Assembly: GCF_964355755.1 (NCBI RefSeq)
Contig: NC_092673.1
Span: 16,861,648 to 16,925,647, forward strand
DNA: 64,000 nucleotides
DNA from: Antedon mediterranea
Taxonomy: Eukaryota; Animalia; Echinodermata
Direction of reading: 5' to 3'
Shown: in pieces, positions 210-62,756 of the stretch
Layout of the letters: the number at the start of each line of letters is the position of its first letter
Position numbering within the stretch: the first letter of the stretch is position 1
The notes under the pieces: model-generated
The model's input: the letters and a program-made list of their open reading frames with translations, nothing else
Databases searched by the model: none
What the model was told of the DNA's origin: nothing
Made by a program: the position numbers and the translations under genes

Positions 210-243
210 CGTGGATCGTATTTGGCTTTAACATTAGAGATCA

Positions 244-17204: not shown

Positions 17205-17237
<33 letters not shown>

Positions 17238-17990: not shown

Positions 17991-18009
17991 ATAGTTCGAT
18001 GTGAACGCC

Positions 18010-33666: not shown

Positions 33667-34724
33667 AATTAAAAACCTGCTCCCTCCCTTACCTTACAAA
33701 AAATGCTTCTGTCAGTCTATCCACCTAATTATGAACATGGCCTTAAAGAAATCCTTTTCCAACCTAGGGTCTTTTTGTGCAAACATTTTGCCACAAAATG
33801 AAGAGAAATGTAAACAATGTTTTGTTAGTTTTCAAAATCTAAATTGTTTGAGTAATGCAATTTAAAAAAGAAAGGTAATATGAAATTATTCTTTTCAAAC
33901 TGAATGCTTTTAAGAAAAGTTCCGTCTTTTATCTTATGACTTTTTTGGAAAAATGATTTCTCGTTAAAATATAATATACTAGTAAGTGCTCACAGATGCT
34001 TCTCGAATACATAAACTTTGGTAAATAACTGAAAATTGCACTGTACACAAGGCAAATGAATACAGATATGATGGAATTTATGTAGTCAAATATAATTGTC
34101 ATCCTGAGAATTACCTTAATGTTGTTTATTACATGGTATTGTTCACCAAATTCCTGTCTTGGTACATTTGATGATGGGATGGTATCAGGCTTCATGATAT
34201 CATATGATTTTCATCGAGGCAATATGGTTCAAACTAAATTTGTTATCGTTAATATCTAACTTAACTTAATTATGATATTGGTTTCATTGGGTGTTAAAAA
34301 TCAGTACTGAAAGTATTTACCAACTTTCTCTACCATTGAGTATAAATTCTAGAAGTTGCACTTAATTTACTGAAATTTCCCATTACCTAAATTTATATGT
34401 AAATTCATTATACTGTACTGCTTATTGGCCTCATATTTTTAACATCTAAACATTTGTTTGTACAATTTTATGTAATATGTATTTTATTAAGGTTTACATT
34501 TTGTGATTGATATTGTACAGTAAGTAGATTTTAATGATTACTTACATTAAGTAATAGGCTAACAATTACTAGATCTGATCCATGGTAATATATTATATTT
34601 GTTTTCATTTATCAATAGTTAACAATTAGGATTATTTACCACATTATTTACAGCAGCAAAAAACAAACAGTTCACATAATGTCTGTTGTCAGTATTTATA
34701 AACTTCATTATGATTCCTTTCCAG

Positions 34725-34835
34725 GATGGTGACACTCTATTACATTCATATCTGGGGAATGAATATACACCTATTACCTTAGAGATAGTGATGTGTCTCA
34801 TTCAGCATGGGGCACCAGTAGCATTGCAAAATAAG
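34725..34835 (+). CDS. ANK exon 1 (37 aa): DGDTLLHSYLGNEYTPITLEIVMCLIQHGAPVALQNK
   Basis: TTTCCAG acceptor, AAG|GTAAAT donor, phase 0-0; G-x-T-[PL]-LH...LEIV..L..HGA ankyrin consensus. Confidence 0.88.
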
Positions 34836-36603
34836 GTAAATGTACAGGGATTTGCTAGTGTAATAAGCTAACATTCTATAGATATGCTGAAGTAAACCAT
34901 TTAATGAGAGAAAAAAGTAAGCACATTAACAAAAATCAAATTTGATGTAAACAAACCAAATAAAAAAATAACTCAATAGTTTATATGATTTATGATAACA
35001 AACAAATTTAAAGTATACAGTTACCTATCACATAACATACATCTTTAATTTTCTTAATGAACAAAAAAATCTACTTTTTTTATATGTTCAGGTGAATCAG
35101 TATAATTTTGTTTACATATTTTTGACCGTAAAACAAATATAAATTGCTCATATGTAGCTGTAAAGATAGCAATGATTGACAATGGTCTAAACAACTAAAA
35201 ATGTTTATGTTAAAAAAATTAATAGAATCTGATTTTAATAAAAAATAATTATTAATTAAAAACCTGCTCCCTCCCTTACCTTACAAAAAATGCTTCTGTC
35301 AGTCTATCCAGCTAATTATAAACATGGCCTTAAACTACATCTGGAGATCCGTTTCCAACCAGGATCTTTTTGTGAAAACATTTTGCCACAAAAGGAAGAG
35401 AAATGTAAATAATGTTTAGCCTTTAGTTTGTGGTTTCCAAAATGCAATTTAAAAAAGAGAGCTAAAATGAAATTATTCTTTTCAAACTGAATGCTTTAAG
35501 AACAGTTCCGTCTCTTATCTTATGACTTTTCGGGGAAAAATGACATTATTAAAGTTGATATATAAAATTTGATACTAGTAAGTGTCAATAGATGGTTCTT
35601 AAATACATGACCTTTGGTAAATAACTGAAAATTGTTTAAGTACAAAGCAAATAAATACAGATATGTTGGAATTTATGTATAGATTATTAATTGTTAATAA
35701 CCTGCTCCCGCCCTTTACTTACTTTACAATAAAATACTTCTGTCAGTCTTATCACATACAGCCAGTATGAATATGGCCTTAAAGAGATCCTTTTCCAAAC
35801 AAACATTTTGCACAAAAGGAAGAGAAATGTAAATAATGTTTAGTTTAGTAAAAATGTTTGAGCAATGCAATTTCAAAAAGAAATTTAATATGAAATTATT
35901 CTTTTCAAACAGTGCCGTATCTTATCTTTTGTCTTTTTGGAAAAAAATTATTCTATTAAAGTTGCCAGTTAAAATTTGATATACTGGTAATTAAGTGCCC
36001 ACAGATGGTTCTTTCGAATACATAAACTTTGGTAAATAACTGAAAATTGTCTAAGTCGCACTGTACACAAAGCAAATAAATACAGATATGATGGAATTTA
36101 TGTATTCAAATATAATTGTCATCCTGAGAATTACCTTAATTTTGTTTATAACATGGTATTGTTCAACAAATTCCTGTCTTGGTACATTTGATGATGGGAT
36201 GGTATCGGGCTTCATGATATGATATGATTTTCATCGAGGCAAATGATTTAAACTAAATTTGTTATCGTTAATATCTAACTTAGCTTAATTTACTGAAATT
36301 TCCCATTACCTAAATTTATATGTAAATTCATTAAACTGCTTATTGGCCTCATATTGTTAACATCTAAACATTTGTTTGTACAATTTTATAAAATACGTAT
36401 TTTATTAATGTTCACATTTTGTGATTGATATTATACAGTAAGTAGATTTTAATGATTACTTACATTAAGTAATAGGCTAACAATCACTAGATCTGCTCCA
36501 TATTATATTTTGTTTTCATTTATCAATAATGATAATTAGGATTTTATCACATTATTTAGCAGTAATTGTTGTTGTTTGTATTAACAAAAAAACAATTTCA
36601 CAA

Positions 36604-37291
36604 GGCCATGTAAAAAAAAAATTGTTGATCATCCTTTTTTTTTTAAAAAAAGTCAGGAGGAAGGGAGGCTTTTTTTTTTTTTTTTTTTTATTATTATCTT
36701 TAATTTTTTATTATTATCGACTCAGCTTAGACTGGGCCGATACTTTGATCATACCATCTCCCTTTCCGGGCTTCCTATCACTGGCGTACACTGTAGGCAA
36801 CGTAGGCTTATCGCCCACGACGGATTCACCGTCGAACTTCCTCGTGTACAATTCAACATACAACTCTGATAATGTTACAACAGCCGTAACTTCGCAGCCA
36901 AACCAATCTTTAATCGGCGAACTACTACCCTCGCGGGTAATAGAAAGTACCACAAAAGACATTTAAGCTGCATAAATACGTATCAATAAAGATCTATTGT
37001 TCGCAAATCACGTGTAAAAAGAACCCACGCTGTACAGCAGGCCAGCGAAAAAAATAAACAAAATCAAGCTAGATACCCGTATCTTGCACATGCGCATATT
37101 GATACTATCAATAGAGGGCCAGATAATCGCGATGAATTTCTGAATTTTGTGATCGCGACGACTGATCTGAGGTTGAAAAACGGGATTTTCATCCGGATTT
37201 TCACGGTTTAAAAAAAAAAAATAAATAAATGAGGCGGGCCGATTTTCGATGTCGGGCGAGGACGATCAACAACCTTTTTTTTTACATGGCC
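36604..37291. mobile_element. Non-autonomous TIR element with GGCC termini (Zator-like; superfamily tentative)
   Basis: GGCCATGTAAAAAAAA ... TTTTTTTTACATGGCC, inserted at the CACATAATG site that is empty in the other units; TAA on the right, imperfect on the left. Confidence 0.7.
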
Positions 37292-37342
37292 TAATGTCTG
37301 TTGTCAGTATTTATAAACTTAATGATTATTATTCCTTTCCAG

Positions 37343-37453
37343 AATGGTGACACTCCATTACATTCATATCTGGGGAGTATATATATTGCACCTACCTTAG
37401 AAATAGTGACATGTCTCATTCAGCATGGGGCACCAGTAGCATTGCAAAATAAG
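37343..37453 (+). CDS. ANK exon 2 (37 aa): NGDTPLHSYLGSIYIAPTLEIVTCLIQHGAPVALQNK
   Basis: AG/GT sites, phase 0-0, TPLH motif. Confidence 0.9.
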
Positions 37454-38214
37454 GTAAATGTACAGGGATTTGCTAGTGTAATAAGCTAACATTCTATAGA
37501 TCTGCTGAAGTAAACCATTTAATGAGAGAAAAAAGTAAGCACATTAACAAAAATGAATTTTGATTAAAACAAACCAAATAAAAAAATAACTAAATAGTTA
37601 TATATGATTTATGATAACTGATTAAAAGTGTACAGTTACCTATCATATAACATAAATCTTTAATTTTCTTAATGAACAAAAAAATCTATTTTTTTTATAT
37701 ATTCAGTTATTAATTAACAATTATTGACAATGGTCTAATTAATTGTAAATATGAAATAAAATGTGACAACTACTAAACAACTAAAAAATGTTTATGATAA
37801 AAAAATTAATAGAATCTGATTTTAATAAAAAATGATTATTAATTAATAATGTGCTCCTTCCCTTATCTTACAAAAAAATGCTTCTGTCAGTCTATCCAGC
37901 TAATTATGAACATGGCCTTAAAGAAATCCTTTTCCAACCTAGGATCTTTTTGTGCAAACATTTTGCCACAAAATGAAGAGAAATGTACACAATGTTTTGT
38001 TAGTTTTCAAAATCTAAATTGTTTGAGTTATGCAATTTAAAAAAGAAAGGTAATATGAAATTATTCTTTTCAAACTGAATGCTTTTAAGAAAAGTTCCGT
38101 CTCTTATCTTATGACTTTTTTGGAAAAATTATTTCTTGTTAAAATATAATATACTAGTAAGTGCTCACAGATGCTTCTCGAATACATAAACTTTTGTAAA
38201 TAACTGAAAATTGC

Positions 38215-39994
38215 CGACACTAAGTACTTGAGTCACAGCCCCACCATGGTTGGGGCTTTGGCGAAGCGATTTTTGGTAATTTACCCCCTAGATGGCTGGA
38301 AATGGTACTCTCGCACATAACATTTATGTTGAATGACACCTCTGGTTTGGCCGGAAATAACACTTATAGCGCGCTAGCAAACAACAAAACGATCGTAGCC
38401 AACTTTTTCCGCCGGTAAACATACGCGAAGAAACATTTTTTGCGTTCATTACGAACGTCAGGGGGAAGCCCCAATGAAAAAAATAGGCCTAATCTATTAG
38501 CCTACTCATCAGTAGGACAACTCTAGTTGGCCGGAAACGAAACTTTATAGCGCACTAGCAAACAGTAAAACCATCGTAGCATACTTTTTCCGCCAGTAAA
38601 CATACGCGATAAAAAAATGTTTTTGCGTTCAATACGAACGTCAAGGGGAATTCCCCGATGAAATAAAACTAGGCCTACTCATGAGTAGAACAACTCTGTA
38701 GTTGGCCGGAAAGACACTTCATAGCGCGCTAGCAAACCGCACGATCGTAGCCTGCTTTTTCCGCCGGTAAACATACGCGATAAGAAACATTTTTTGCGTT
38801 CATTACGAACGTCAAGGGGAATTCCCCGATGAAATAAAAAATGCCTACTCATCAGTAGGACAACTCTGTAGTTGGCCGGAAAGGACACTTCATAGCGCGC
38901 TAGCAAACAGCCCGATTGAGCCTACTTTTGCGCAGGTAAACATACTGTACGCGATATATGAAAAAAAAATATGCCTCATCAGTAGGCAACTGTAGTTAGC
39001 CGGAAACGACACCTCATAGCGCGTTAGCAAACATTAAAAACGATCGTAGCCTACTTTTTTTTTCGCCGGCGGGTAAACATATGCGATAAAAAAACATTTT
39101 TTGCGTTCAAATACAAATATCGGGGGCAAGTCCCGATGAAATAAAACTAGGCTTACTCATTAGTAAGACACCTCAAGTTGCCCGGAAATAAGACTTCATA
39201 GCGCACAAGGAAATAGGAAAACATTCGAAAGAGAGACATGGCAGTAACAAAACACGTGCTTACATCTCTCGGCGGCGGCCGGTGAAAGCACCATGTGACA
39301 TACAGTATCGCAGTACTGATATCACAATACCATGTGACATCCCTTGTCACTCGACTTTCTCACGAAGTAGGGCCTAAAACATTCTAGCACCGATGTACAA
39401 ATGTACCTTAAGTTAAGTGAAATAAGACTTTAGCACACTAGCAAATAGGAAAACGATCGTAGCCTTCTTGAATGTATTATACGATCAAAGCAGCTAGCAT
39501 TGAATTGCGCCTAGAAATCATTTGATGACGTCATCGATATTTATTTTTAATACACATAACATTTTTACAAGAAAAACAATACAATCAATCATTTACTTTA
39601 TTTACAATATACAAGTTACTACACTTTAGACAACAGCCAAATACTAGAGATCGAAAGAGAGACATGGCAGTAACAAAACACGTGTTTACATCTCTCGGCG
39701 GCGGCGGCCGGTGAAAGCGAGTCTCAGTTGTTTAACACTTTGTTACGCAGTCTTTTGTTTTTCGTCTAGTGGTCATGTCACGTGTCTCGTATGCATTAGG
39801 CTCTTTATGCATGCCGCGCCTCAGCTCTAGAAAAGTACCGTACCTGCCTGTTAATCTATTTTTAGATTGTTGTGGTTGATATTTTTAAGCGTCACGGATA
39901 AGGTTTTAAGCGTCACGGCCGACCGTAAAGCGTCACGGTAGAGAACCCAAGCGTCACGGTACCGTGATGCTTCAAAGGCCTGGGGAGAACACTG
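38215..39994. mobile_element. Truncated hAT-like non-autonomous element with ~180-bp internal tandem repeats
   Basis: Right end CTGGGGAGAACACTG (reverse complement CAGTGTTCTCCCCAG) and clustered GCGTCACGG subterminal motifs. The other end and adjacent intron DNA are deleted. Confidence 0.65.
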
Positions 39995-40453
39995 CTGGTT
40001 TTCATTAGGTGTTAAAAATTAGTACCGAAAGTATGTACCAACTTTCTCTACCATTGGGTAAAAATTATAGAAGTTGCACTTAATTTACTGAAATTTCCCA
40101 TTACGTAAATTTGTAAATTCATTAAACTGCTTATTGGCCTCATATTTTTAATATCTGAACATTTGTTTGTACAATTTTATGAAATATGTATTTTATAACG
40201 TTCAAATTTTGTGATTGATATTGTACAGTAATTAGATTTTGATGATTACTTACATTAAGTAATAGACTAACAATCACTGAATCTGATCCATGGTAATATA
40301 TTATATTTTGTTTTCATTTATCAATAATGATAATTAGGATTTTATCACATTATTTAGCAGTAATTGTTGTTGTTTGTATTAACAAAAAAACCCAATTTCA
40401 CATAATGTCTGTTGTCAGTATTTATAAACTTCATGATTATGATTCCTTTCCAG

Positions 40454-40564
40454 TATGGTAACACTCTATTACATTCATATCTGAGGAATGTATATACTGC
40501 ACCTACCTTAGAAATAGTGACGTGTCTCAAGCAGCATGGGGCACCAGTAGCATTGCAAAATAAG
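40454..40564 (+). CDS. ANK exon 3 (37 aa): YGNTLLHSYLRNVYTAPTLEIVTCLKQHGAPVALQNK
   Basis: AG/GT sites, phase 0-0. Confidence 0.88.
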
Positions 40565-42025
40565 GTAAATGTACAGGGATTTGCTAGTGTAATAGGCTAA
40601 CATTATATAGATCTGCTGAAGTAAACCATTTAATGAGAGAAAAAAGTAAGCACATTAACAAAAATCAAATTTGATTAAAACAAACCAAATAAAAAAATAA
40701 CTAAATAGTTATATATGATTTATGATCTGATTTAAAGTGTACAGTTACCTATCATATAACATAAATCTTTAATTTTCTTAATGAACAAAAAAATCTATTT
40801 TTAAAATATATTCAGTTATTAATTAACAATTATTGACAATGGTCTAATTAATTGTAAATATGAAATAAAATGCGACAACTACTAAACAACTAAAAATGTT
40901 TATTAAAAAAAATAATAGAATCTGATTTTAATAAAAAATAATTATAAATTAAAAACCTGCTCCCTCCCTTACCTTACAAAAAATGCTTCTGTCAGTCTAT
41001 CCAGCTAATTATGAACATGGCCTTAAAGAAATCCTTTTCCAACCTAGGATCTTTTTGTGCAAACATTTTGCCACAAAATGAAGAGAAATGTAAACAATGT
41101 TTTGTTAGTTTTCAAAATCTAAATTGTTTGAGTAATGCAATTTTAAAAAGAAAGTTAATATGAAATTATTCTTTTCAAACTGAATGCTTTTAAGAAAAGT
41201 TCCGTCTTTTATCTTATGACTTTTTTGAAAAAATGAATTCTCCTTAAAATATAATAAACTAGTAAGTGCTCACAGATGCTTCTCGAATACAAGAACTTTG
41301 GTAAATAACTGAAAATTGTCTAAGTCACAGTGTACACAAAGCAAATGAATACAGATATGTTGGAATTTATGTAGTCAAATATAATTGTCATCCTGAGAAT
41401 TACCTTAATTTTGTTTATTGCATGGTATTGTTCACCAAATTCCTGTCTTGGTATATTTGATGATGGGATGGTATTAGGCTTCATGATATGATATGATTTT
41501 CATTGAGGCAATATGGTTTAAACTAAATTTGTTATCGTTAATATCTAAATTAGCTTAATTATGACATTGGTTTCATTGGGTGTTAAAAATCAGTACCGAA
41601 AGTATGTACCAACTTTCTCTACCATTGTGTAAAAATTCTAGAAGTTGCACTTAATTTACTGAAATTTCCCATTACCTAATTTTAAATTTATATGTAAATT
41701 CATTTAACTGCTTATTGGCCTCATATTGTTAACATCTAAACATTTGTTTGTACAATTTTATGAAATATGTATTTTATTAATGTTCAAATTTTGTGATTGA
41801 TATTGTACAGTAAGTAGATTTTAATGATTACTTACATTAAGTAATAGGCTAACAAAATCACTAGATCTGATCCATGGTAATATATTTCATTTATCAATAA
41901 TGATAATTAGGATTTTATCACATTATTTAGCAGTAATTGTTGTTGTTTGTATTAACAAACAAAAAACAATTTAACATAATGTCTGTTGTCAGTATTTATA
42001 TTGCTTCATTATGATTCCTTTCCAG

Positions 42026-42133
42026 TTTGGTGACACTCCATTACATTCATATCTGGGGAGTAGATATACACCTACCTTAGAAATACTGACGTTTCTCATT
42101 CAGCATGGGGCACCAGTAGCATTGCAAAATAAG
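42026..42133 (+). CDS. ANK exon 4 (36 aa): FGDTPLHSYLGSRYTPTLEILTFLIQHGAPVALQNK
   Basis: AG/GT sites, phase 0-0; not in the ORF track. Confidence 0.88.
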
Positions 42134-42864
42134 GTAAATGTACAGGAATTTGCTAGTGTAATAGGATAACATTATATAGATCTGTTGAAGTAAACCATTT
42201 AATGAGAGAAAAAAGTAAGCACATTAACAAAAATCAAATTTGATTAAAACAAACCAAATAAAAAAATAACTAAATAGTTATATATGATTTATGATCTGAT
42301 TTAAAGTGTACAGTTACCTATCATATAACATAAATCTTTAATTTTCTTAATGAACAAATAATCTTTTTTTTTTATATATTCAGTTATTAATTAACAATTA
42401 TTGACAATGGTCTAAATTAATTGTAAATATGAAATAAAATGCGACACCTACTAAACAACTAAAAATGTTTATGTTAAAAAAATTAATAGAATCTGATTTT
42501 AATAAAAAATAATTATTAATTAATAACCTACTCCCTCCCTTACCTTACAAAAAATGCTTCTGTCAGTCTATCCAGCTAATTATAAACATGGCCTTAAACT
42601 ACATCTGGAGATCCTTTTCCAACCTAGGATATTTTTGTGCAAACATTTTGCCACAAAAGGAAGAGAAATGTAAATAATATTTAGCCTTTTAGTTAGTGGT
42701 TTCCAAAATTTAAAATGTTTGAGCAATGCAATTTAAAAAAGAAAGCTAATATGAAATTATTCTTTTCAAACTGAATGCTTTAAGAACAGTTCCGTCTCTT
42801 ATCTATGACTTTTCTGGGAAAAATGACATTATTAAAGTTGCTATATAAAATTTGATACTAGTAA

Positions 42865-43905
42865 GACCCCATTTACACTTCATCGACGATTTCTTAGCCG
42901 GCCCGAAGTCGGCCCGACGCCGGCTTTCTTTTTAGCCCGCAATGTGTTTACACTTACCCAAAAAGCCGGCCTCGGGCCCTTACTATTGTGTTTACACTTG
43001 CTCTCGCGGAAGAGTGCTCGATGATACGATTTCGCTACATTCACGTCATATCCGCTCATGTGCGTCTTAAAAAGTTAATATTATAAGCGTTGTCGATCTA
43101 CACTAGGCCTAGGCCTATCAACTTTATCAAAAAAGAATCAAATAACGGTATTTAATATGGATCAAAACAATTGTATTATTGCTTTACTACTAATGTTTGC
43201 GTCTCGTTTTCTAAAGAATAGTAGTAGATCATACGCCTTTTTCACGAAACGGAAGACATCTTCGATCGATGACGACACAAACAATGCCGTTCAACGAAGC
43301 GTAACCAACAGAAATAACATAGCGTTTTCAGCCTATTTTCGGAGGACAAGTTACTTAAAAATTCGTAAACGCCTCAACGGACAGTCGTATGGACAAAATT
43401 TTTACTGTAAAATGTTCTTTAAAGATTAGCCTATAGAACTGTGTGATTAAAAAAAATTATAATTTTTTTTTCACTTCTTAAGTCCATCGAAAAAAACTCC
43501 ACAGTTTATAAGCATAGGCGATGGTGTCCTGAAATCCCCTGAAAACGCTATGTTATTTATGTTGGTTACGCTTCGTTGCACGGCATTGTTTGTCATAGAT
43601 CGTGAAAAAGGCGTATACATCTTCACCAATTTAATTTCAATGAAGAATTTCCGATTCATCAGCAATAAGTTTCGTAAACTTAAAGCTATAGTTGACCCAG
43701 AACGTTCATTTTATGACCGCGAGTGTTTGCACTATACGAAGTGCCGGCCCGAAGCCCGCAATTGCCGGCCCGAAGCCTACTCTAGACTAGGCTCAAAATT
43801 GAGCCGGCTCGAGGCCGGCTCGGTTGTTCCCAGAGTGTTTACACTTGTGCACTTTTGGCTCGAGCCGGCCTCGGGCTCGCTAAAAGCTGAAGTGTAAATG
43901 GGGTC
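42865..43905. mobile_element. PIF/Harbinger-type MITE, TAA TSD
   Basis: TAA|GACCCCATTTACACTTCA ... TGAAGTGTAAATGGGGTC|TAA; empty site at ~48585; internal inverted repeat ~43280/43540. Confidence 0.88.
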
Positions 43906-44688
43906 TAAGTGTCAATAGATGGTTCTTAAATACATGACCTTTGGTAAATAACTGAAAATTGCACTGTACACAAGGCAAATAAATACAGATATGATGGAAT
44001 TTATGTAGTCAAATATAATTGTCATCCTGAGAATTACCTTAATTTTGTTTATTGCATGGCATTGTTCACCAAATTCCTGTCTTGGTACAATTGATGATGG
44101 GATGGTATAAGGCTTCATGATATGATATGATCTTCATCGAGTCATGATATGATATGATCTTCATCGAGGCAAATGGTTTAAACTAAATTTGTTATCGTTA
44201 ATATCTAACTTAAATTAATTATGATATTGGTTTCATTGGGTTTTAAAAATCAGTACCGAAAGTATGTACCAACTTTCTCTACCATTGAGTATAAATTCTA
44301 GAAGTTGCACTTAATTTACTGAAATTTCTCATTACCTAAATTTATATGTAAATTCATTAAACTGCTTATTGGCCTCATATTGTTAACATCTAAACATTTG
44401 TTTGTACAATTTTATGAAATATGTATTTTATTAATGTTCAAATTTTGTGATTGATATTGTACAGTAAGTAGATTTTAATGATTACTTACATTAAGTAATA
44501 GCCTAACAATCACTAGATCTGATCCATGGTAATATATTATATTTTGTTTTCATTTATCAATAATGATATAATTAGGATTTTATCACATTATTTAGCAGTA
44601 ATTGTTGTTGTTTGCATTAACAAAAAATACCAATTTCACATAATGTCTGTTGTCAGTATTTATAAACTTCATTATGATTCCTTTCCAG

Positions 44689-44796
44689 GATGGTTACACT
44701 CCATTAAATTCATATCTGGGGAGTGTATATACACCTACCTTGGAAATAGTGACGTGTCTCATTCAGCATGGGGCACCAGTATCATTGCAAAATGAG
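44689..44796 (+). CDS. ANK exon 5 (36 aa): DGYTPLNSYLGSVYTPTLEIVTCLIQHGAPVSLQNE
   Basis: AG/GT sites, phase 0-0. Confidence 0.88.
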
Positions 44797-45484
44797 GTAA
44801 ATGTACAGGGATTTGCTAGTGTAATAAGCTAACATTATATAGATCTGCTGAAGTAAACCATTCAATGAGAGAAGCACATTAACAAAAATCAAATTTGATT
44901 AAAACAAACCAAATAAAAAAATAACTAAATAGTTATATATGATTTATGATAACTGATTTAAAGTGTACAGTTACCTATCATATAACATAAATCTTTAATT
45001 TTCTTAATGAACTAAAAAATCTATTTTTTTTATATATTTATTAATTAACAATTATTGACAATGGTCTAATTAATTGTAAATATGAAATAAAATGTGACAA
45101 CTACTAAACAACTAAAAAATGTTTATGTTAAAAAAATTAATAGAATCTGATTTTAATAAAAAATGATTATTAATTAATAATGTGCTCCTTCCCTTATCTT
45201 ACAAAAAAATGCTTCTGTCAGTCTATCCAGCTAATTATGAACATGGCCTTAAAGAAATCCTTTTCCAACCTAGGATCTTTTTGTGCAAACATTTTGCCAC
45301 AAAATGAAGAGAAATGTACACAATTTTTTGTTAGTTTTCAAAATCTAAATTGTTTGAGTTATGCAATTTAAAAAAGAAAGGTAATATGAAATTATTCTTT
45401 TCAAACTGAATGCTTTTAAGAAAAGTTCCGTCTCTTATCTTATGACTTTTTTGGAAAAATTATTTCTTGTTAAAATATAATATA

Positions 45485-45888
45485 CTAGTAAGTGCTCACA
45501 GATGCTTCTCGAATACATAAACTTTGGTAAATAACTGAAAATTGCACTGTACACAAGGCAAATAAATACAGATATGATGGAATTTATGTAGTCAAATATA
45601 ATTGTCATCCTGAGAATTACCTCAATTTTGTTTATTGCATGGTATTGTTCACCAAATTCCTGTCTTGGTACATTTGATGATGGGATGGTATAAGGCTTCA
45701 TGATATGATATGATCTTCATCGAGGCAAATGATAAATTTGTTTTGATCGTCAATATAGTACACTGGTTTTCATTAGGTGTTAAAAATTAATAGCGAAAGT
45801 ATGTACCAACTTTCTCTACCATTGGGTAAAAATTATAGAAGTTGCACTTAATTTACTGAAATTTCCCATTACGTAAATTTATATATAA
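45485..45888 (-). mobile_element. Helitron relic in the ANK intron unit (representative copy; one per unit)
   Basis: Reverse complement aligns with both ends of the Helitron at 53445-54719; CTAG terminus retained. Confidence 0.7.
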
Positions 45889-46222
45889 ATTCATTAAACT
45901 GCTTATTGGCCTCATATTTTTAATATCTGAACATTTGTTTGTACAATTTTATGAAATATGTATTTTATAACGTTCAAATTTTGTGATTGATATTGTACAG
46001 TAATTAGATTTTAATGATTACTTACATTAAGTAATAGGCTAACAATCACTAGGTCTGATCCATGGTAATATATTATATTTTGTTTTCATTTATCAATAAT
46101 GATAATTAGGATTTTATCACATTATTTAGCAGTAATTGTTGTTTGTATTAACAAAAAAACCCAATTTCACATAACGTCTGTTGTCAGTATTTATAAACTT
46201 CATGATTATGATTCCTTTCCAG

Positions 46223-46333
46223 TCTGGTAACACTCTATTACATTCATATCTGAGGAATGTATATACTGCACCTACCTTAGGAATAGTGATGTGTCTCATT
46301 CAGCATGGGGCACCAGTAGCATTGCAAAATAAG
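46223..46333 (+). CDS. ANK exon 6 (37 aa): SGNTLLHSYLRNVYTAPTLGIVMCLIQHGAPVALQNK
   Basis: AG/GT sites, phase 0-0. Confidence 0.88.
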
Positions 46334-47785
46334 GTAAATGTACAGGGATTTGCTAGTGTAATAGGCTAACATTATATAGATCTGCTGAAGTAAACCATTT
46401 AATGAGAGAAAAAAGTAAGCACATTAACAAAAATCAAATTTGATTAAAACAAACCAAATAAAAAAATAACTAAATAGTTATATATGATTTATGATCTGAT
46501 TTAAAGTGTACAGTTACCTATCATATAACATAAATCTTTAATTTTCTTAATGAACAAAAAAATCTATTTTTAAAATATATTCAGTTATTAATTAACAATT
46601 ATTGACAATGGTCTAATTAATTGTAAATATGAAATAAAATGCGACAACTACTAAACAACTAAAAATATTTATTTAAAAAAATAATAGAATCTGATTTTAA
46701 TAAAAAATTATTATAAATTAAAAACCTGCTCCCTCTCTTACCTTACAAAAAATGCTTCTGTCAGTCTATCCAGCTAATTATGAACATGGCCTTTAAAGAA
46801 ATCCTTTTCCAACCTAGGATCTTTTTGTGCAAACATTTTGCCACAAAATGAAGAGAAATGTAAACAATGTTTTGTTAGTTTTCAAAATCTAAATTGTTTG
46901 AGTAATGCAATTTTAAAAAGAAAGTTAATATGAAATTATTCTTTTCAAACTGAATGCTTTTAAGAAAAGTTCCGTCTTTTATCTTATGACTTTTTTGAAA
47001 AAATGAATTCTCGTTAAAATATAATAAACTAGTAAGTGCTCACAGAACTTTGGTAAATAACTGAAAATTGTCTAAGTCACAGTGTACACAAAGCAAATGA
47101 ATACAGATATGTTGGAATTTATGTAGTCAAATATAATTGTCATCCTGAGAATTACCTTAATTTTGTTTATTACATGGTATTGTTCACCAAATTCCTGTCT
47201 TGGTATATTTGATGATGGGATGGTATTAGGCTTCATGATATGATATGATTTTCATTGAGGCAATATGGTTTAAACTAAATTTGTTATCGTTAATATCTAA
47301 ATTAGCTTAATTATGACATTGGTTTCATTGGGTGTTAAAAATCAGTACTGAAAGTATGTACCAACTTTCTCTACCATTGAGTATAAATTCTAGAAGTTGC
47401 ACTTAATTTACTGAAATTTCTCATTACCTCAATTTATATGTAAATTCATTTAACTGCTTATTGGCCTCATATTGTTAACATCTAAACATTTGTTTGTACA
47501 ATTTTATGAAATATGTATTTTATTAATGTTCAAATTTTGTGATTGATATTGTACAGTAAGTAGATTTTAATGATTACTTACATTAAGTAATAGCCTAACA
47601 ATCACTAGATCTGATCCATGGTAATATATTATATTTTGTTTTCATTTATCGATAATGATAATTAGGATTTTATCACATTATTTAGCAGTAATTGTTGTTG
47701 TTTGTATTAACAAAAAAAAAACAATTTGATTTCACATAATGTCTGTTGTCAGTATTTATATTACTTCATTATGATTCCTTTCCAG

Positions 47786-47893
47786 TATGGTGACACTCCA
47801 TTACATTCATATCTGGGGAGTGGATATACACCTACCTTAGAAATACTGACGTTTCTCATTCAGCATGGGGCACCAGTAGCATTGCAAAATAAG
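47786..47893 (+). CDS. ANK exon 7 (36 aa): YGDTPLHSYLGSGYTPTLEILTFLIQHGAPVALQNK
   Basis: AG/GT sites, phase 0-0. Confidence 0.88.
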
Positions 47894-49333
47894 GTAAATG
47901 TACAGGAATTTGCTAGTGTAATAGGATAACATTATATAGATCTGCTGAAGTAAACCATTTAATGCGAGAACAAACCAAATAAAAAAATAACTAAATAGTT
48001 TATATGATTTATGATAACTGATTAAAAGTGTACAGTTAGCTATTATATAACATAAATCTTTAATTTTCTTAATGAACAAATAATCAATTTTTTTTATATA
48101 TTCAGTTATTAATTAACAATTATTGACAATGGTCTACTTCATTGTAAATATGAAAAAAAATGCGACAACTACTAAACAACTAAAAATGTTTATGTTAAAA
48201 AAATTAATAGAATCTGATTTTAATAAAAATTAATTATTAATTAATAACCTACTCCCTCCCTTACCTTATTACAAAAAATGCTTCTGTCAGTCTATCCAGC
48301 TAATTATAAACATGACCTTAAACTACATCTTGAGATCCTTTTCCAACCTAGGATATTTTTGTGCAAACATTTTGCCACAAAAGGAAGAGAAATGTAAATA
48401 ATATTTAGCCTTTTAGTTAGTGGTTTCCAAAATTTAAAATGTTTGAGCAATGCAATTTAAAAAAGAAAGCTAATATGAAATTATTCTTTTCAAACTGAAT
48501 GCTTTAAGAACAGTTCCGTCTCTTATCTTATGACTTTTCGGGGAAAAATGACATTATTAAAGTTGCTATATAAAATTTGATACTAGTAAGTGTCAATAGA
48601 TGGTTCTTAAATACATGACCTTTGGTAAATAACTGAAAATTGCACTGTACACAAGGCAAATAAATACAGATATGATGGAATTTATGTAGTCAAATATAAT
48701 TGTCATCCTGAGAATTACCTTAATTTTGTTTATTGCATGGTATTGTTCACCAAATTCCTGTCTTGGTACAATTGATGATGGGATGGTATAAGGCTTCATG
48801 ATATGATATGATCTTCATCGAGGCAAATGGTTTTTAAACTAAATTTGTTATCGTTAATATCTAACTTAACTTAATTATGATATTGGTTTCATTGGGTGTT
48901 AAAAATCAGTACCGAAAGTATGTACCAACTTTCTCTACCATTGAGTATAAATTCTAGAAGTTGCACTTAATTTACTGAAATTTCTCATTACCTAAATTTA
49001 TATGTAAATTCATTAAACTGCTTATTGGCCTCATATTGTTAACATCTAAACATTTGTTTGTACAATTTTTATGTATTTTATTAATGTTTACATTTTGTGA
49101 TTGATATTGTACAGTAAGTAGATTTTAATGATTACTTACATTAAGTAATAGCCTAACAATCACTAGATCTGATCCATGGTAATATATTATATTTTGTTTT
49201 CATTTATCAATAATGATAATTAGGATTTTATCACATTATTTAGCAGTAATTGTTGTTTGTATTAACAAAAAAACCCAATTTCACATAATGTCTGTTGTCA
49301 GTATTTATAAACTTCATTATGATTCCTTTCCAG

Positions 49334-49441
49334 GATGGTGACACTCCATTAAATTCATATCTGGGGAGTGTATATACACCTACCTTAGAAATAGTGACGT
49401 GTCTCATTCAGCATGGGGCACCAGTAGCATTGCAAAATAAG
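49334..49441 (+). CDS. ANK exon 8 (36 aa): DGDTPLNSYLGSVYTPTLEIVTCLIQHGAPVALQNK
   Basis: AG/GT sites, phase 0-0. Confidence 0.88.
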
Positions 49442-50445
49442 GTAAATGTACAGGGATTTGCTAGTGTAATAAGCTAACATTATATAGATATGCTGTGGTA
49501 AACCATTCAATGAGAGAAGCACATTAACAAAAATCAAATTTGATTAAAACAAACCAAATAAAAAAATAACTAAATAGTTATATATGATTTATGATAACTG
49601 ATTTAAAGTGTACAGTTACCTATCATATAACATAAATCTTTAATTTTCTTAATGAACAATAAAATCTTTTTTTTTTTATATATTCAGTTATTAATTAACA
49701 ATTATTGACAATGGTCTAATTAATTGTAAATATGAAATAAAATGGGACAACTACTAAACAACTAAAAAATGTTTATGATAAAAAAAATTAAAAGAATCTG
49801 ATTTTAATAAAAAATGATTATTAATTAATAATGTGCTCCTTCCCTTATCTTACAAAAAAAATGCTTCTGTCAGTCTATCTAGCTAATTATGAACATGGCC
49901 TTAAACTACATCTGGAGATCCTTTTCCAACCTATGATCTTTTTGTGCAAACATTTTGCCACAAAATGAAGAGAAATGTACACAATGTTTTGTTAGTTTTC
50001 AAAATCTAAATTGTTTGAGTAATGCAATTTAAAAAGAAAGGTAATATGAAATTATTCTTTTCAAACTGAATGCTTTTAAGAAAAGTTCCGTCTCTTATCT
50101 TATGACTTTTTTGAAAAAATGATTTCTTGTTAAAATATAATATACTAGTAAGTGCTCACAGATGCTTTTTGAATACATGAACTTTGGTAAATAACTGAAA
50201 ATTGCACTGTACATGCCTTAAGGCATATAAATACAGATATGATGGAATTTATGTAGTCAAATATAATTGTCATCCTGAGAATTACCTTAATTTTGTTTAT
50301 TGCATGGTATTGTTCACCAAATTCCTGTCTTGGTACAATTGATGATGGGATGGTACTGTATCAGGCTTCATGATATGATATGATCTTAATCGAGGCAAAT
50401 GATAAATTTGTTTTGATCGTCAATATAGTACACTGGTTTTCATTA

Positions 50446-52060
50446 CCGTATATTTCGGTATATAAGTCGCACTTTTGACACGCAAATTTGACCTCTAAAT
50501 TAAGGGTGCGTCTTATACACCGAACATAAATGCCTCACCACACAGTGTACATATCGTCACCTCGTTGGCTAGGCTAGGCCTAGCTACAGTGTACTAACGT
50601 AACGGCAACCTGCTTCTGCCTAGTTTTCAAGGCATTTTAGCGTGATGTTATACTAAATATGATGAAAAGATTTGTTTATTATGGAGCTGTTTTAGGCGCT
50701 CCGAGAAAATTTCATTTGTAAACGTTTACGATTGGAATAGATAGTATTTATTTATAGTTATACGCACGATCGCCGACCGCCGTACCCCCAGCGCAAGCCC
50801 TTCTTGGCGGCCACATGTTGTACGGTATTCGACTAGTATATTCTCCAGGTGATTATAGCATGGACCTAGCGTACACACTTCTCGGATACATAGATACTAA
50901 TCGAATACGATTGTCCGTGAAAACGTGCGCCCTCTTGAAATGATCGAGCGAGGCTAGCCCACACACGTGCGTGTTACACACACGGTCATGCACTCGATGT
51001 TGCGGGTGCGAAACTCATGAATAACAAGTTAGAAACAACTTGTTGAGGCTGGCCGCGGCCGAGCCTAGGTAAGAAAAAACCTAAATAAAGGACGCCGTTG
51101 TAGATATAACAAAATATATTATTACAATAAGATTGATTCCGGGATTGATTACAATATAAAAAAAACATTGTTTTGATGAAATATAAGGTGCGTCTTATAC
51201 ATCGACGATACAAAAAACACCGTGGTTAGGATTCCGGCACCGGAACCCAACTGCCCAGCGTTAGGGAATCCGACACGCTATTGCGCATGCCCAGAGCGAG
51301 GTAATCGGCGACTCTATACTATACCAATTCTTTGACTATACAGCGATGGATCATTTCATAGCTACGCCACACGGCGAACTAGCCTAGATGCCTACTAATG
51401 CGGGATCCACTAATCTAGGCTAGGGCTACCAGTTAGACGTGACCAGTGGGCCTATTTATTTTGTAATTAAAAAATGGTTGCTTCATTCATATATAAACTT
51501 TTCATATCATTATGAATTATATAATTACATGACTAGTTTTATGATTTTTCATAACGCATTTAATATACTGTACATAACATGCAATCACAAGTTGATTTGT
51601 TGACGGCAGCCACCGCGTGGATGTGAAAAAACTGTTCGGGAATTCGGGGTCGCAACGTTAAAAACAGCATTACGATTCTTAGATAGATACTGATTCTTAT
51701 TAATATCATTATAATTATTTTAACGCGTGGCGTAGTCGTATTTTAATTATTAATTCATGTATGGCATAGGCCAAGTTTCATCCATCTCTCGCTCGCGCAA
51801 CGACTCGACTATCTAGGCTACAGTAAATCCCTATAACACTCCGACTCTCGGTGGTGTGGTGTGTGGCACTATTAGTGCAAGCTATAATTCACTTCCCAGA
51901 GCTCTGGGCATGCGCAATATCGTGTCGGATTCCCTAACGGTGGGCAGTTGAGTTCCGGTGCCGGAATCCTAACCACGGCGTACAAAAAATACCGATATTT
52001 TACTCTCAGTTAGGGGGTGCGTCTTATACACAGGTGCGACTTATACACCGAAATATACGG
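50446..52060. mobile_element. Tc1/mariner(pogo)-type MITE, TA TSD, carrying a nested element
   Basis: TA|CCGTATATTTCGGT ... ACCGAAATATACGG|TA; second copy at 56998-57846. Confidence 0.88.
51218..51980. mobile_element. Mutator-like MITE, 9-bp TSD TACAAAAAA
   Basis: ~80-bp TIRs (CCGTGGTTAGGATTCCGGCACCGGAAC...); TSD at 51209-51217 and 51981-51989; absent from the 56998-57846 copy. Confidence 0.85.
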
Positions 52061-52515
52061 TAGGTGTTAAAAATTAGTACCGAAAGTATGTACCAACTTT
52101 CTCTTCCATTGAGTAAAAATTCTAGAAGTTGCACTTAATTTACTGAAATTTCCCATTACCTAAATTTATATGTAAATTCATTTAACTGCTTATTGGCCTC
52201 ATACATTATGTTAACATCTAAACATTTGTTTGTACAATTTTATGAAATATGTATTTTATTAATGTCAAAATTTTGTGATTTGATATTGTACAGTAAGTAG
52301 ATTTTAATGATTACTTACATTAAGTAATAGGCTAACAATCACTAGATCTGATCCATGGTAATATATTATATTTTGTTTTCATTTATCGATAATGATATTT
52401 AGGATTTTATCACATTATTTAGCAGTAATTGTTGTTGTTTGTATTAACAAAAAATACCAATTTCACATAATGTCTGTTGTCAGTATTTATAAACTTCATT
52501 ATGATTCCTTTCCAG

Positions 52516-52620
52516 TCTGGTGACACTCTATTACATTCATATCTGGGGCGTGGAGACCCTACCTTAGAAATAGTGACGTGTCTCATTCAGCATGGGGTAC
52601 CAGTAGCATTGCAAAATAAG
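52516..52620 (+). CDS. ANK exon 9 (35 aa): SGDTLLHSYLGRGDPTLEIVTCLIQHGVPVALQNK
   Basis: AG/GT sites, phase 0-0; not in the ORF track. Confidence 0.88.
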
Positions 52621-53444
52621 GTAAATGTACAGGGATTTGCTAGTGTAATAGGCTAACATTATATAGATCTGCTGAAGTAAACCATTTAATGAGAGAAAAA
52701 AGTAAACACATTAACAAAAATCAAATTTGATTAAAACAAACCAAATAAAAATAATAACTAAATAGTTATATATGATTTATGATAACTGATTTAAAGTGTA
52801 CAGTTATCATATAACATAAATCTTTAATTTTCTTAATGAACAAAAAAATCTATTTTTAAAATATATTCAGTTATTAATTAACAATTATTGACAATGGTCT
52901 AATTAATTGTAAATATGAAATAAATGCGATAACTACTAAACAACTAAAAATGTTTATTAAAAAAATTAATACAATCTGATTTTAATAAAAAATAATTATT
53001 AATTAAAAACCTGCTCCCTCCCTTACCTTACAAAAAATGCTTCTGTCAGACTATCCAGCTAATTATGAAAATGGCCTTAAAGAAATCCTTTTCCAACCTA
53101 GGATCTTTTTGTGCAAACATTTTGCCACAAAATGAAAAGAAATGTAAACAATGTTTTGTTAGTTTTCAAAATCTAAATTGTTTGAGTAATGCAATTTAAA
53201 AAAGAAAGGTAATATGAAATTATTCTTTTCAAACTGAATGCTTTTAAGAAAAGTTCCGTCTCTTATCTTATGACTTTTTTGGAAAAATGATTTCTCGTTA
53301 AAATATAATATACTAGTAAGTGCTCACAGATGCTTTTTGAATACATGAACTTTGGTAAATAACTGAAAATTGCACTGTACACAAGGCAAATAAATACAGA
53401 TATGATGGAATTTATGTAGTCAAATATAATTGTCATCTTGAGAA

Positions 53445-54719
53445 TCTATATATAAATTTACGTAAGGGCAAAATTCGGTAAATCGCGCCTTACTTCTAGA
53501 ATTTTTACTCGATGGTATATAAAGTTGGTTCGTACTTTCGGTACTGATTTTAACCACCTGATGTAACCCTGTTTACTAATTAAATTAAGTTAGATAATTA
53601 GTTATTGACGATTTAAACGAATTTAGGTTCAACGATTTGCCCCAAATAGGGGTGTTTTCCGATCGGGGTATACACTGTCTAATGGATGTCCATCTTGATA
53701 AATACCCGCCACAAAAATGCGAGGAGGCTTCGCATTTTCCTATCTCCTCCTACGATAATTGTTTTTAATAGCTGAAAACTGGTTGAACAGCTAGAGTACA
53801 GCATCATAATGTTGAAGACAGGCCGATTTTCTTTAAAAAATACTATTTTGATAGATTTAATATACGATTATACAAATGTATTGATTTGCGATGAATGGAA
53901 CATCCCAATCTCTCAGTCTGCCAGAGTTTGGTTTAACACAAGTAGGTAGATTTATGAGCCCTTGGTTTAACACATACGGTAGGTAAATATATGGGCCCTT
54001 TGAGAATAAACTTGAGCAATACTGTAAATACCTATTAACTATTTTTTTTTTTTTTTTTCTTACTGTGAATGTTCGTACTGTTGGATGTAATATAAAAATA
54101 TATACAAATAAACGTTATTACTGAGATTGTGGATAGGCTCTACTGTTAGATATATAAACACATTATTATATACACATAAACTTTATACTGACAGTTCTTT
54201 CTCAACGTTTGTATTAATTAATAATTACCAACAATATAAACGTCGTAGTGGTGTATCGTGACATGTACTTTAATATTTCAATCGATTATGACAGTGACAG
54301 TTTTAACAAAGTATTAAATCGCAAATGTTTTACTGTATTTAGAGGTATATTATTTATAGGCGTATAAAACATGAAAAAAATATTTCGTTACTGAGTGGAT
54401 AAAGAATATATTTAAAAATTGTTCCTCTTTGCACCTATCCGCTTTCCCATCCCTCAACCCTAATGTTACATAAAAAACACAAATTGGGTTTCTTTAAATG
54501 AGTCCAAATCAAAAATTTGGACTCATTTTGTGATAAGTTTCTCCTTCGGAAGTAATTCCCAGGGTGCTAATTTTAGTTGACTACATAAATCATTGTGTCT
54601 ATTTATACGTTTCTGTATACGACAATTATAGTATTATAGTCCTGCGGAACGTACTTTGAAATCGCCAGTTTTGTTACGCTGAAGTTTCTGTGTATTCGAG
54701 AACCATCTGTACCATCTAG
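53445..54719 (+). mobile_element. Non-autonomous Helitron
   Basis: 5' TC and 3' CTAG, inserted between A and T of GAGAA|TTACC with no TSD; the site is empty in other units. Confidence 0.85.
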
Positions 54720-55325
54720 TTACCTTAATTTTGTTTATTATATGGTATTGTTCACCAGTTCCTGTCTTGGTACATTTGATGATGGGATGGTATGGCTTCA
54801 TGATATGATATGATCTTCATCGAGGCAAATGATAAATTTGTTTTGATCGTCAATATAGTACACTGGTTTTCATTAGGTGTTAAAAATTAGTACCGAAAGT
54901 ATGTACCAACTTTCTCTACCATTGGGTAAAAATTATAGAAGTTGCACTTAATTTACTGAAATTTAATTCCCATTACGTAAATTTATATATAAATTCATTA
55001 AACTGCTTATTGGCCTCATATTTTTAATATCTGAACATTTGTTTGTACAATTTTATGCAATATGTATTTTATAACGTTCAAATTTTGTGATTGATATTGT
55101 ACAGTAATTAGATTTTGATGATTACTTACATTAAGTAATAGGCTAACAATCACTAGATCTGATCCATGGTAATATATTATATTTTGTTTTCATTTATCAA
55201 TAATGATAATTAGGATTTTATCACTTTATTTAGCAGTAATTGTTGTTGTTTGTATTAACATAAAAAACAATTTCACATAATGTCTGTTGTCAGTATTTAT
55301 AAACTTCATTATGATTCCTTTCCAG

Positions 55326-55361
55326 AATGGTGACACTCTATTACATTTATATGTGAGGAGT
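55326..55361 (+). pseudogene. Truncated ANK exon 10 (NGDTLLHLYVRS)
   Basis: Intact acceptor, then a deletion junction into intron sequence; a further remnant with only the donor end lies at ~55786-55820. Confidence 0.7.
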
Positions 55362-60215: not shown

Positions 60216-60308
60216 ATTTACCAAGTACTGTTGATGAGCAATTTCAAACACAATTTCAGAAACAGACAAGTGACGAACAGAAAACAAAACTTCTTAAGCC
60301 AGAGAGTG
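60216..60308 (+). CDS. Linker exon (phase 1-1): (D)LPSTVDEQFQTQFQKQTSDEQKTKLLKPES
   Basis: TTTTTTTAG acceptor, G|GTAAGT donor, open frame, phase-compatible with the next exon. Confidence 0.7.
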
Positions 60309-61548: not shown

Positions 61549-61696
61549 ATATTGCTGCACGTGAATTAGATTTTCAGAAAGCATACAATGAAGCCTTGAA
61601 AGATGGATCCGTTCCAGTCAATCTTGGAATGCTTAAAGTGATTGGGCAAGAAGGAGTGGGTAAAACATGCCTCATCAATGCATGTCTTGGAAAAGA
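61549..61696 (+). CDS. Roc-type GTPase exon with P-loop GQEGVGKT
   Basis: TTTTCAG acceptor, GA|GTAAGT donor. AYNEALKDGSVPV...LKVIGQEGVGKTCLINACLG is a typical pre-Roc helix plus G1. Confidence 0.88.
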
Positions 61697-62099: not shown

Positions 62100-62185
62100 A
62101 TTTGAGGAAAAGCATGTAGTTACAGATGGCATAGCGGTAATAAGAACAGCAAGCACAACATGGACAGAGGCTAAAGCTGATAGTG
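62100..62185 (+). CDS. Roc exon with switch-I-like motif: (E)FEEKHVVTDGIAVIRTASTTWTEAKADS
   Basis: Phase 2 to phase 1, in frame with the previous exon; TDGI at the expected G2 spacing. Confidence 0.82.
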
Positions 62186-62518: not shown

Positions 62519-62583
62519 GTAATACAATACAACAGTATACAAAAATGGTCACTGACAAATTGAGAAAAAAGAAAACTGTAAAC
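62519..62583 (+). CDS. Following exon: (G)NTIQQYTKMVTDKLRKKKTVN
   Basis: Strong polypyrimidine tract and CAG acceptor, GTATGT donor, phase 1 to 0, open frame. Confidence 0.72.
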
Positions 62584-62610: not shown

Positions 62611-62756
62611 GGGTCTAGGACAACTACCCCCTGGACAGCTACCACCCGGACAATCACCCTCCTAGGACAACTACCCTCTTAGGACAACTACCCTCTTAGG
62701 ACAATTACCCTCTTAGGACAATTACCCCTAGGACAACTACCCCCTAGGACAACTAC
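62611..62756. repeat. Minisatellite of GGACAA(C/T)TACCC(T)CTTA units, probably a TE end
   Basis: About 9 copies of a 14-17 bp unit. Confidence 0.75.

What the first reader, a model, noticed from the sequence alone, without database searches (positions are those of the whole stretch)
34725..52620. Variation concentrated at DARPin-like binding positions, mostly non-synonymous, in-frame indels only
Seen: residue 1 is D/N/Y/F/D/S/Y/D/S and residue 3 is D/N/Y. The segment after helix 1 reads GNEYTPI, GSIYIAP, RNVYTAP, GSRYTP, GSVYTP, GSGYTP or GRGDP. The QHGAPVALQNK end is nearly fixed, and exon lengths are 111/108/105 bp. My count across sister pairs 3/6, 4/7 and 5/8 is 9 amino-acid-changing codons versus 1 synonymous, which is suggestive but a small sample. 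Known: residues flanking the hairpin Gly and following helix 1 form the ankyrin binding face randomised in DARPins. Inference: diversifying selection.
Basis: partly seen in the sequence, partly recalled or inferred. Interest (0 to 1): 0.8.

Follow-up and report, generated by a model that had tools for sequence, protein, structure and literature searches.

The report
Feather-star ankyrin exon array under diversification
Nine near-identical exons, each coding one ankyrin repeat, sit in frame ahead of a Roco GTPase domain in a feather-star gene, and protein-changing differences pile up in the first third of the repeat faster than the neighbouring introns change, likely because selection keeps varying the predicted binding surface of what is likely an immune sensor.

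Summary
They are the sensor end of an ANK-ROC-COR (Roco) gene of the crinoid Antedon mediterranea: nine repeats, cap, linker and ROC exons form an open 486-codon frame, and paralogues join the same parts, some with a C-terminal DED. The 9:1 count alone is not significant (P about 0.2). Over all nine copies selection is moderately supported: pN 0.111 against pS 0.041 and introns 0.05-0.06; 23 replacement to 3 silent variants; codons 1-13 hold 14 variants, none at third positions; M0 omega 3.5-4.6, reached by 1 of 76 and 1 of 83 neutral simulations with recombination. The site test is fragile (6 of 83 with hotspots; lost without codons 1 and 13). The DARPin match is partial: four of six positions vary, and much variation lies in an inserted inter-helix loop. 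The C-terminal half evolves at the intron rate. Two broken copies exist, no N-cap exon lies in the window, and expression is untested. It parallels brown-algal one-repeat-per-exon LRR-Roco genes; I found no such report for an animal ankyrin Roco.

The parts
34725..34835 (+). ankyrin exon e1 (111 bp, phase 0/0), most divergent copy
   Evidence: (Pfam Ank E 0.0013)
37343..37453 (+). ankyrin exon e2 (111 bp)
40454..40564 (+). ankyrin exon e3 (111 bp), sister of e6
42026..42133 (+). ankyrin exon e4 (108 bp), sister of e7
44689..44796 (+). ankyrin exon e5 (108 bp), sister of e8 (e2 groups with them)
46223..46333 (+). ankyrin exon e6 (111 bp)
47786..47893 (+). ankyrin exon e7 (108 bp)
   Evidence: (E 3e-05)
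49334..49441 (+). ankyrin exon e8 (108 bp)
52516..52620 (+). ankyrin exon e9 (105 bp); its short GDPT-type loop also occurs in paralogue P0017
55326..55361 (+). broken copy 10: acceptor and first 12 codons kept, rest and donor deleted
55787..55807 (+). broken copy 11: only the exon's 3' end and donor remain, acceptor lost
56305..56389 (+). C-terminal capping repeat exon (85 bp, phase 0 to 1)
   Evidence: (61% to the cap of P0008)
60216..60308 (+). linker exon (93 bp, phase 1/1)
   Evidence: (100% to P0005/P0006)
61549..61696 (+). ROC exon 1 with the P-loop (GxxxxGKT)
62100..62185 (+). ROC exon 2
62519..62583 (+). ROC exon 3; the gene continues beyond the window
33667..55820 (+). whole tandem array of exon-plus-intron units (about 1.55 kb each without insertions), with a three-unit block duplication e3-e5 / e6-e8
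   Evidence: self-BLAST; 95% over 2.9 kb and 94.5% over 1.5 kb

Best explanation
The nine exons are tandem one-repeat cassettes that read in frame into a Roco GTPase gene of a feather star, and their replacement changes crowd into the hairpin, the end of helix 1 and the following loop, likely because positive selection keeps varying the predicted ligand-binding surface of what is likely an intracellular immune sensor. Shown: the exon anatomy, the open 14-exon frame, the identity of cap/linker/ROC with Antedon Roco proteins, the excess of replacement variants, and recombination among units. Inferred steps: (1) whole exon-plus-intron units multiply by unequal crossing-over and swap pieces by conversion, and because every exon is phase 0/0 any gain, loss or skip keeps the frame; (2) this homogenises introns, silent sites and framework, while selection retains new residues at codons 1, 3, 11-13 and loop-length changes; (3) ligand binding to the ankyrin stack would switch the ROC-COR module and signal through the C-terminal DED-like domain seen in the matching and paralogous proteins, probably to cell death or inflammation. 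The ligand is unknown; microbial or parasite proteins are the likeliest.
For: Open frame of 486 codons, all AG/GT. Post-ankyrin part 99.2% identical over 131 aa to P0005/P0006 (Roc + COR-A; P0005 weak DED E 0.0014) and 77% over 163 aa to P0008, which joins two such repeats, cap, linker and ROC; P0016 and P0180 are ANK-Roc-COR-DED. Mean pN 0.111, pS 0.041, introns 0.060 and 0.050 over 36 pairs (28 upstream). Tree-free counts on 33 unambiguous codons: 23 replacement, 3 silent; codons 1-13 have 14 replacement variants against 6.1 expected from the intron spectrum (P 0.004) and none at third positions (P 0.003); six DARPin-equivalent codons 10 against 3.2 (P 0.0016). M0 omega 3.5-4.6 (P 0.003-0.018), M2a/M1a P 0.0001-0.003 in 6 of 6 tree and frequency settings, M8/M8a P 0.0001-0.0007 in 2 of 2. 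M0 omega of 3.52 or more in 1 of 76 and 1 of 83 neutral simulations. Recombination among units P 0.0005. The same positions are the most variable among 24 distinct paralogous repeats (rho 0.56, P 0.002, 28 positions). AF2 model of paralogue P0017 (pLDDT 91.7) puts 11-12 at the end of helix 1 and 13-17 in the inter-helix loop; it matches DARPins at TM about 0.78.
Against: Only 26 variants; the tests are not independent and the region 1-13 was chosen after seeing the data. Replacement-to-silent ratio alone is P 0.07. M2a/M1a statistic is reached by 6 of 83 neutral runs with hotspots and falls to P 0.08 without codon 1 and P 0.27 without codons 1 and 13. Codons 18-37 evolve at the neutral rate (omega 1.3; 9 seen, 9.4 expected), so purifying selection on the framework is not shown. 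No N-cap exon or further ankyrin exon in the 34.7 kb upstream, where a satellite-like array cuts into the first unit. The RefSeq models that match this locus (P0005/P0006) start at 59090 and leave the ankyrin and cap exons out, and none of the three protein searches returned a protein with these exact repeats. COR and DED lie outside the window. No ligand or immune data.
Confidence: 0.65

Rival explanations
1. The array is now a 5'-truncated or silent remnant that evolves neutrally; the excess in codons 1-13 is chance plus local mutation hotspots plus segments converted in from functional paralogues, which carry the marks of selection elsewhere.
For: No N-cap exon in the window; two broken copies; RefSeq skips the exons; codons 18-37 at neutral rate; hotspot simulations reach the site statistic in 6 of 83 runs; recombination is significant and the e9 loop type occurs in paralogue P0017.
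Against: Hotspots and imports should hit third positions too, yet 0 of 14 variants in codons 1-13 do; no simulation of 83 matched both the omega and the site statistic; nine of nine intact exons have no stop or frameshift, and the last 12 and first 13 intron bases are invariant (P 0.04-0.13 for 18 columns); cap, linker and ROC exons are intact.
Confidence: 0.2
2. The gene is functional but the pattern is only relaxed constraint: surface and loop positions drift while the framework is held, and silent sites and introns look slow because they are constrained or homogenised.
For: D, N and Y before the hairpin Gly also occur in an unrelated ankyrin protein (P0181), so this may be a tolerated set; loops are commonly tolerant (own knowledge); significance depends on codons 1 and 13.
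Against: Relaxation caps the rate at neutral, but replacement divergence is about twice intron and nearly three times silent divergence, two baselines that agree with each other; the framework half is not slower than introns.
Confidence: 0.1
3. Part of the array is an assembly artefact: e3-e5 and e6-e8 are two haplotypes laid end to end, so the sister pairs are alleles and the true array has six repeats.
For: The blocks are adjacent and about 95% alike; sister intron divergence 0.7-2.9% could be heterozygosity; an insertion at 42866-43905 is in one block only.
Against: e2 is as close to e5 downstream (5 of 544) as sisters are, and e9 to e3 (8 of 544), so near-identical units occur outside the block. 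Alleles would still show the same replacement excess, so this changes the copy number, not the selection reading.
Confidence: 0.05

Closest known systems
Brown-algal LRR-ROCO genes (Ectocarpus, Saccharina; PMC3341825: abstract, sections 15 and 19 read; PMC11378527: abstract and passages read)
   Same: Roco GTPase with an N-terminal repeat sensor, one repeat per symmetric exon, recombination among exon units, inactivated exon copies in introns, positive selection at a few predicted binding-face residues, recent gene duplication, proposed immune receptor.
   Different: Here an animal, ankyrin repeats of 35-37 aa in phase-0 exons rather than 72-bp phase-2 LRR exons; loop length varies; no reversed exons on the other strand in this window; relatives carry a DED-like domain; splicing variants not shown.
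Fungal NLRs with high internal conservation of WD40, ANK or TPR repeats (PMC13449251: passages read)
   Same: Near-identical repeats homogenised by crossing-over or conversion while a few positions are hypervariable under diversifying selection; ANK versions exist, some with non-canonical lengths of 33-36 aa.
   Different: Those have NACHT or NB-ARC ATPases with the repeats C-terminal; here the switch is a ROC GTPase, the repeats are N-terminal, and the duplicated unit is exon plus about 1.4 kb of intron.
DARPins (PMC8229355, PMC8683736: passages read; PDB hits)
   Same: Same fold; the positions equal to residues 3, 11 and 12 differ among DARPin repeats in the alignments; randomised positions lie on the concave face.
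   Different: Engineered, fixed 33 aa. Here 2-4 extra residues between the helices vary in sequence and length, and the positions equal to DARPin 33 and 2 (residues 35, 37; numbering recalled from Binz 2003) are almost fixed.
Roco family with ankyrin repeats (LRRK1/2, DAPK1 from own knowledge; ANK-ROCO of Gonium and oomycetes, PMC11378527 passages; AP-GTPase/COR conflict proteins, PMC8195603 passage)
   Same: ROC-COR core with repeat domains and death-fold or other effector domains.
   Different: No kinase in the matching proteins; a lineage-specific cluster of recent duplicates with a fast-changing ankyrin array.

Membership tests
Ankyrin repeat | Profile match to the Ank repeat | tested here: met
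   9 of 9 exons hit PF00023 (E 3e-05 to 0.034), 3 of 9 above the curated cut-off
Ankyrin repeat | Helix-loop-helix-hairpin stack | tested here: met
   On paralogue P0017, not on the window's own spliced product: pLDDT 91.7, DARPin matches TM about 0.78
Roco proteins | ROC GTPase domain | tested here: met
   P-loop exon identical over 98-100% of its length to 5 of 14 hits, all 14 with PF08477; only the first ROC exons lie in the window
Roco proteins | COR domain directly after ROC | tested here: inconclusive
   Outside the window; present in P0005/P0006, which match the window at 99.2% over 131 aa
Brown-algal exon-shuffling ROCO | One repeat per frame-symmetric exon | tested here: met
   Nine phase 0/0 exons
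Brown-algal exon-shuffling ROCO | Repeats are LRRs | tested here: not met
   Ankyrin; so it works like these genes but is not a member
Brown-algal exon-shuffling ROCO | Inactivated or reversed repeat exons in introns | tested here: inconclusive
   Two truncated copies on the same strand; none on the minus strand
Brown-algal exon-shuffling ROCO | Positive selection at binding-face residues | tested here: met
   Moderately; weakened
Brown-algal exon-shuffling ROCO | Alternative splicing of repeat exons | not testable with these tools
   No run on record as RNA was listed
Fungal HIC NLRs | Near-identical repeats with few hypervariable sites and recombination | tested here: met
   72-81% aa identity to e1, 85% mean column identity; recombination P 0.0005
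Fungal HIC NLRs | NACHT or NB-ARC STAND ATPase | tested here: not met
   ROC GTPase instead
Fungal HIC NLRs | Repeat-number polymorphism among individuals | not testable with these tools
   One assembly; laid contigs are short

The most novel reading that the evidence does not exclude
A crinoid has a natural DARPin library: a cluster of Roco-DED genes whose ankyrin cassettes are duplicated, converted between paralogues, positively selected and combinatorially skipped or rearranged, giving each animal or cell its own repertoire of intracellular binders wired to a GTPase death switch, convergent with the brown-algal LRR-Roco system.
Probability: 0.2. Interest if true: 0.85.

Novelty: new variant of a known kind. 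Interest (0 to 1): 0.6.

Why it matters
Most Roco proteins have no known function. If this holds, a third repeat type (ankyrin) in a third kingdom has converged on the design seen in brown-algal LRR-Roco and fungal NLR genes: homogenised repeats with a diversified binding face on a nucleotide switch. It would add a candidate intracellular receptor family to echinoderm immunity, one that the matching RefSeq models leave out, and it offers natural evidence that the loop between the two helices is a usable diversity site that standard DARPin libraries do not vary. The nine variants on one framework make specificity directly testable.

Tried and rejected
No whole genome is held for this window, so other loci and the gene's 5' end could not be read as DNA. 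The sister-pair count as a test: rejected, P about 0.2. MAFFT's loop alignment (codons 14-17) mixes separate indels, so I dropped those four codons from all counts; the pN/pS means still include them. e1 has a poorly homologous intron patch that inflates the intron rate; I kept it, which is conservative; with it 12-16% of 39-base intron windows reach 14 variants, without e1 the maximum is 10-11 against 13 in codons 1-13. e2 was left out of upstream-intron figures and of the recombination test because an insertion replaces its upstream flank. Codon 23 (T/M) is a CpG site and is better read as mutation than selection. N-cap exon: not found by tblastn with four paralogue caps. My first exon coordinates for the linker and ROC exon 2 were two bases off and were corrected. 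Codon models are my own GY94 script with branch lengths fixed from M0, 5 beta classes and naive empirical Bayes, not codeml or MEME. Literature: searches (listings) found no paper on crinoid or animal ankyrin-Roco exon arrays; most subscription papers and all supplements were not seen. The two DARPin papers' passages did not give position numbers, so positions 2, 3, 5, 13, 14, 33 are recalled. No earlier scan finding by sequence or place.
Full report
Observation. A motif scan and BLAST found nine intact exons between 34725 and 52620, each flanked by the same acceptor and donor, and two truncated copies at 55326-55361 and about 55787-55807. Each exon hits Pfam Ank (9 of 9; 3 of 9 above the cut-off). 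The repeated unit is exon plus intron, about 1.55 kb where no element has inserted; the array runs from 33667 to about 55820 and includes a three-unit block duplication (e3-e5 / e6-e8, about 95% alike).

What gene it is. Downstream lie a capping-repeat exon (56305-56389), a linker (60216-60308) and ROC exons (61549-61696, 62100-62185, 62519-62583). All 14 exons have AG/GT ends, matching phases and give 486 codons without a stop. The P-loop exon found 14 proteins among 18 candidates, all named Antedon mediterranea and all with Pfam Roc; five match it at 100% over 98-100% of its length and 11 lie on one 36.2-Mb record. The part after the ankyrins is 99.2% identical over 131 aa to P0005 and P0006 (Roc, COR-A, weak DED in P0005), and 77% over 163 aa to P0008, which joins two repeats of this class to cap, linker and ROC. 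P0016 and P0180 are full ANK-Roc-COR-DED proteins. A profile of the nine exons against 1.84 billion representatives gave 513 hits; of the nine whose clusters I looked up, the six with this repeat class were all from A. mediterranea. P0005/P0006 begin with a reading frame at 59090 rather than with the ankyrin exons, so those models omit the array. No N-cap exon and no other ankyrin exon was found upstream in the window: the gene either starts more than 34 kb away, beyond a satellite-like array, palindromes and an LTR element, or has lost its 5' end.

Selection, tree-free. Mean pairwise pN is 0.111, pS 0.041, downstream intron 0.060, upstream intron 0.050. On 33 codons that align without doubt (14-17 dropped) there are 23 replacement and 3 silent variants; expectation from the intron mutation spectrum is 15.5 and 5.3 (P 0.045 for the replacement excess; P 0.07 for the ratio). 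Codons 1-13: 14 against 6.1 (P 0.004), 0 silent; codons 18-37: 9 against 9.4; codons 27-37: 3 against 5.6 (P 0.19). All 14 variants in codons 1-13 are at first or second positions (P 0.003; whole exon P 0.036). The six DARPin-equivalent codons (1, 3, 11, 12, 35, 37) carry 10 variants against 2.2 for intron column pairs (P 0.0003) and 4.0 for random codon sets (P 0.011); nine of the ten are at 1, 3, 11, 12. These counts ignore homoplasy and so are not inflated by recombination, which is present (neighbour incompatibility 0.14 against 0.24, P 0.0005).

Selection, codon models (own script). M0 omega 3.5-4.6 (P 0.003-0.018 against omega 1); M2a/M1a P 0.0001-0.003 in six of six settings; M8/M7 P 0.0003-0.002 and M8/M8a P 0.0001-0.0007 in two of two; codons 1 and 13 always, 12 on the intron tree. 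Dropping e1 or e9 leaves P about 0.01. Dropping codon 13 leaves P 0.008, codon 1 P 0.08, both P 0.27; codons 18-37 alone give omega 1.3. Neutral simulations with recombination reached the observed omega in 1 of 76 and the site statistic in 1 of 76; with added codon-level rate variation, 1 of 83 and 6 of 83, both together 0 of 83, and 22 of 83 passed the nominal 5% level. So the overall replacement excess is robust at about P 0.01-0.03, while naming single sites is not.

Where the changes lie. An AF2 model of paralogue P0017 (same framework; pLDDT 91.7) has helix 1 at repeat positions 5-10/12, a loop of variable length, then helix 2 from position 19; the long loop has the lowest internal confidence. 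It matches DARPins at TM about 0.78. In PDB alignments the DARPin positions equal to residues 3, 11 and 12 differ from repeat to repeat, and DARPins lack the 2-4 extra loop residues; that randomised positions lie on the concave face is from passages of PMC8229355 and PMC8683736, the numbering is recalled. Among 24 distinct repeats from nine Antedon paralogous proteins, positions 1, 3, 8, 11, 12, 13 are again among the most variable, lengths run from 34 to 40 aa, and the profile correlates with the window's (rho 0.56, P 0.002). That supports the location, not the sign of selection.

Mechanism. Best reading (0.65): symmetric exon units are gained, lost and converted; this keeps introns, silent sites and framework alike, while selection keeps new residues at the hairpin, helix-1 end and loop; ligand binding would switch ROC-COR and signal through a DED-like domain. 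Anatomy, frame, excess and recombination are shown; expression, ligand, immunity and signalling are inferred. Rivals: silent remnant with hotspots and imports (0.2), relaxed constraint only (0.1), false duplication of e3-e5 (0.05).

Comparison. It works like the brown-algal LRR-ROCO genes (PMC3341825: abstract, sections 15 and 19; PMC11378527: abstract and passages) and like fungal NLRs with highly conserved repeats (PMC13449251: passages), but is a member of neither: the repeat is ankyrin and the switch a ROC GTPase. It is filed as a Roco gene on ROC and on the matching proteins' COR. Eight library searches (listings) showed no report of an animal ankyrin-Roco exon array; the library lacks most subscription papers and I read no supplements. 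One earlier scan note describes a similar LRR pattern in a microbial eukaryote Roco gene; I did not test it.

Verdict. Real feature, moderately supported diversifying selection, new variant of a known kind; interest 0.6.

Noticed in passing
window 238-5087 (+): Two long overlapping ORFs (310 and 1315 aa) that read like gag and pol of a Ty3/Gypsy LTR retrotransposon (label from own knowledge, not searched); they look intact.
   Followed up: no
window 6243-17992: A 7.3-kb palindrome (10743-17991, 95% identity) whose ends are also copied at 6243-7768.
   Followed up: no
window 20298-33667 (and 7809-9198): A 13-kb mosaic array of diverged 0.3-2.5 kb repeats with poly-A and short GAA-rich tails; it ends exactly where the first ankyrin unit's intron begins.
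   Followed up: partly
window 36603-37291, 42866-43905, 50446-52061, 56998-57847: Insertions with terminal inverted repeats in the unit introns; the one at 50446 has a relative at 56998.
   Followed up: partly
window 53446-54719: A segment with very high summed contig depth in the laid runs whose first 200 bases match the unit intron in reverse at about 74%, suggesting part of the unit intron is an old copy of a high-copy element.
   Followed up: no
window 58894-59432 (-): Broken minus-strand ORFs that look like a LINE reverse-transcriptase end (label from own knowledge); RefSeq models P0005/P0006 use its antisense frame at 59090 as their first exon.
   Followed up: partly
proteins P0007, P0009, P0011, P0013, P0016: The Antedon Roco family shuffles domains: DED-Roc-COR, ANK with two Roc-COR units, Death-Roc-COR, kinase-Roc-COR-Death, ANK-Roc-COR-DED.
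   Followed up: partly
first base of each ankyrin exon: The most variable codon directly follows the splice acceptor (first base G x3, T x5, A x1); it might also tune exon inclusion. Speculative.
   Followed up: no
window 38500-38945, 62615-62756, 63553-63999: Tandem repeats of period 171, 17 and 160.
   Followed up: no
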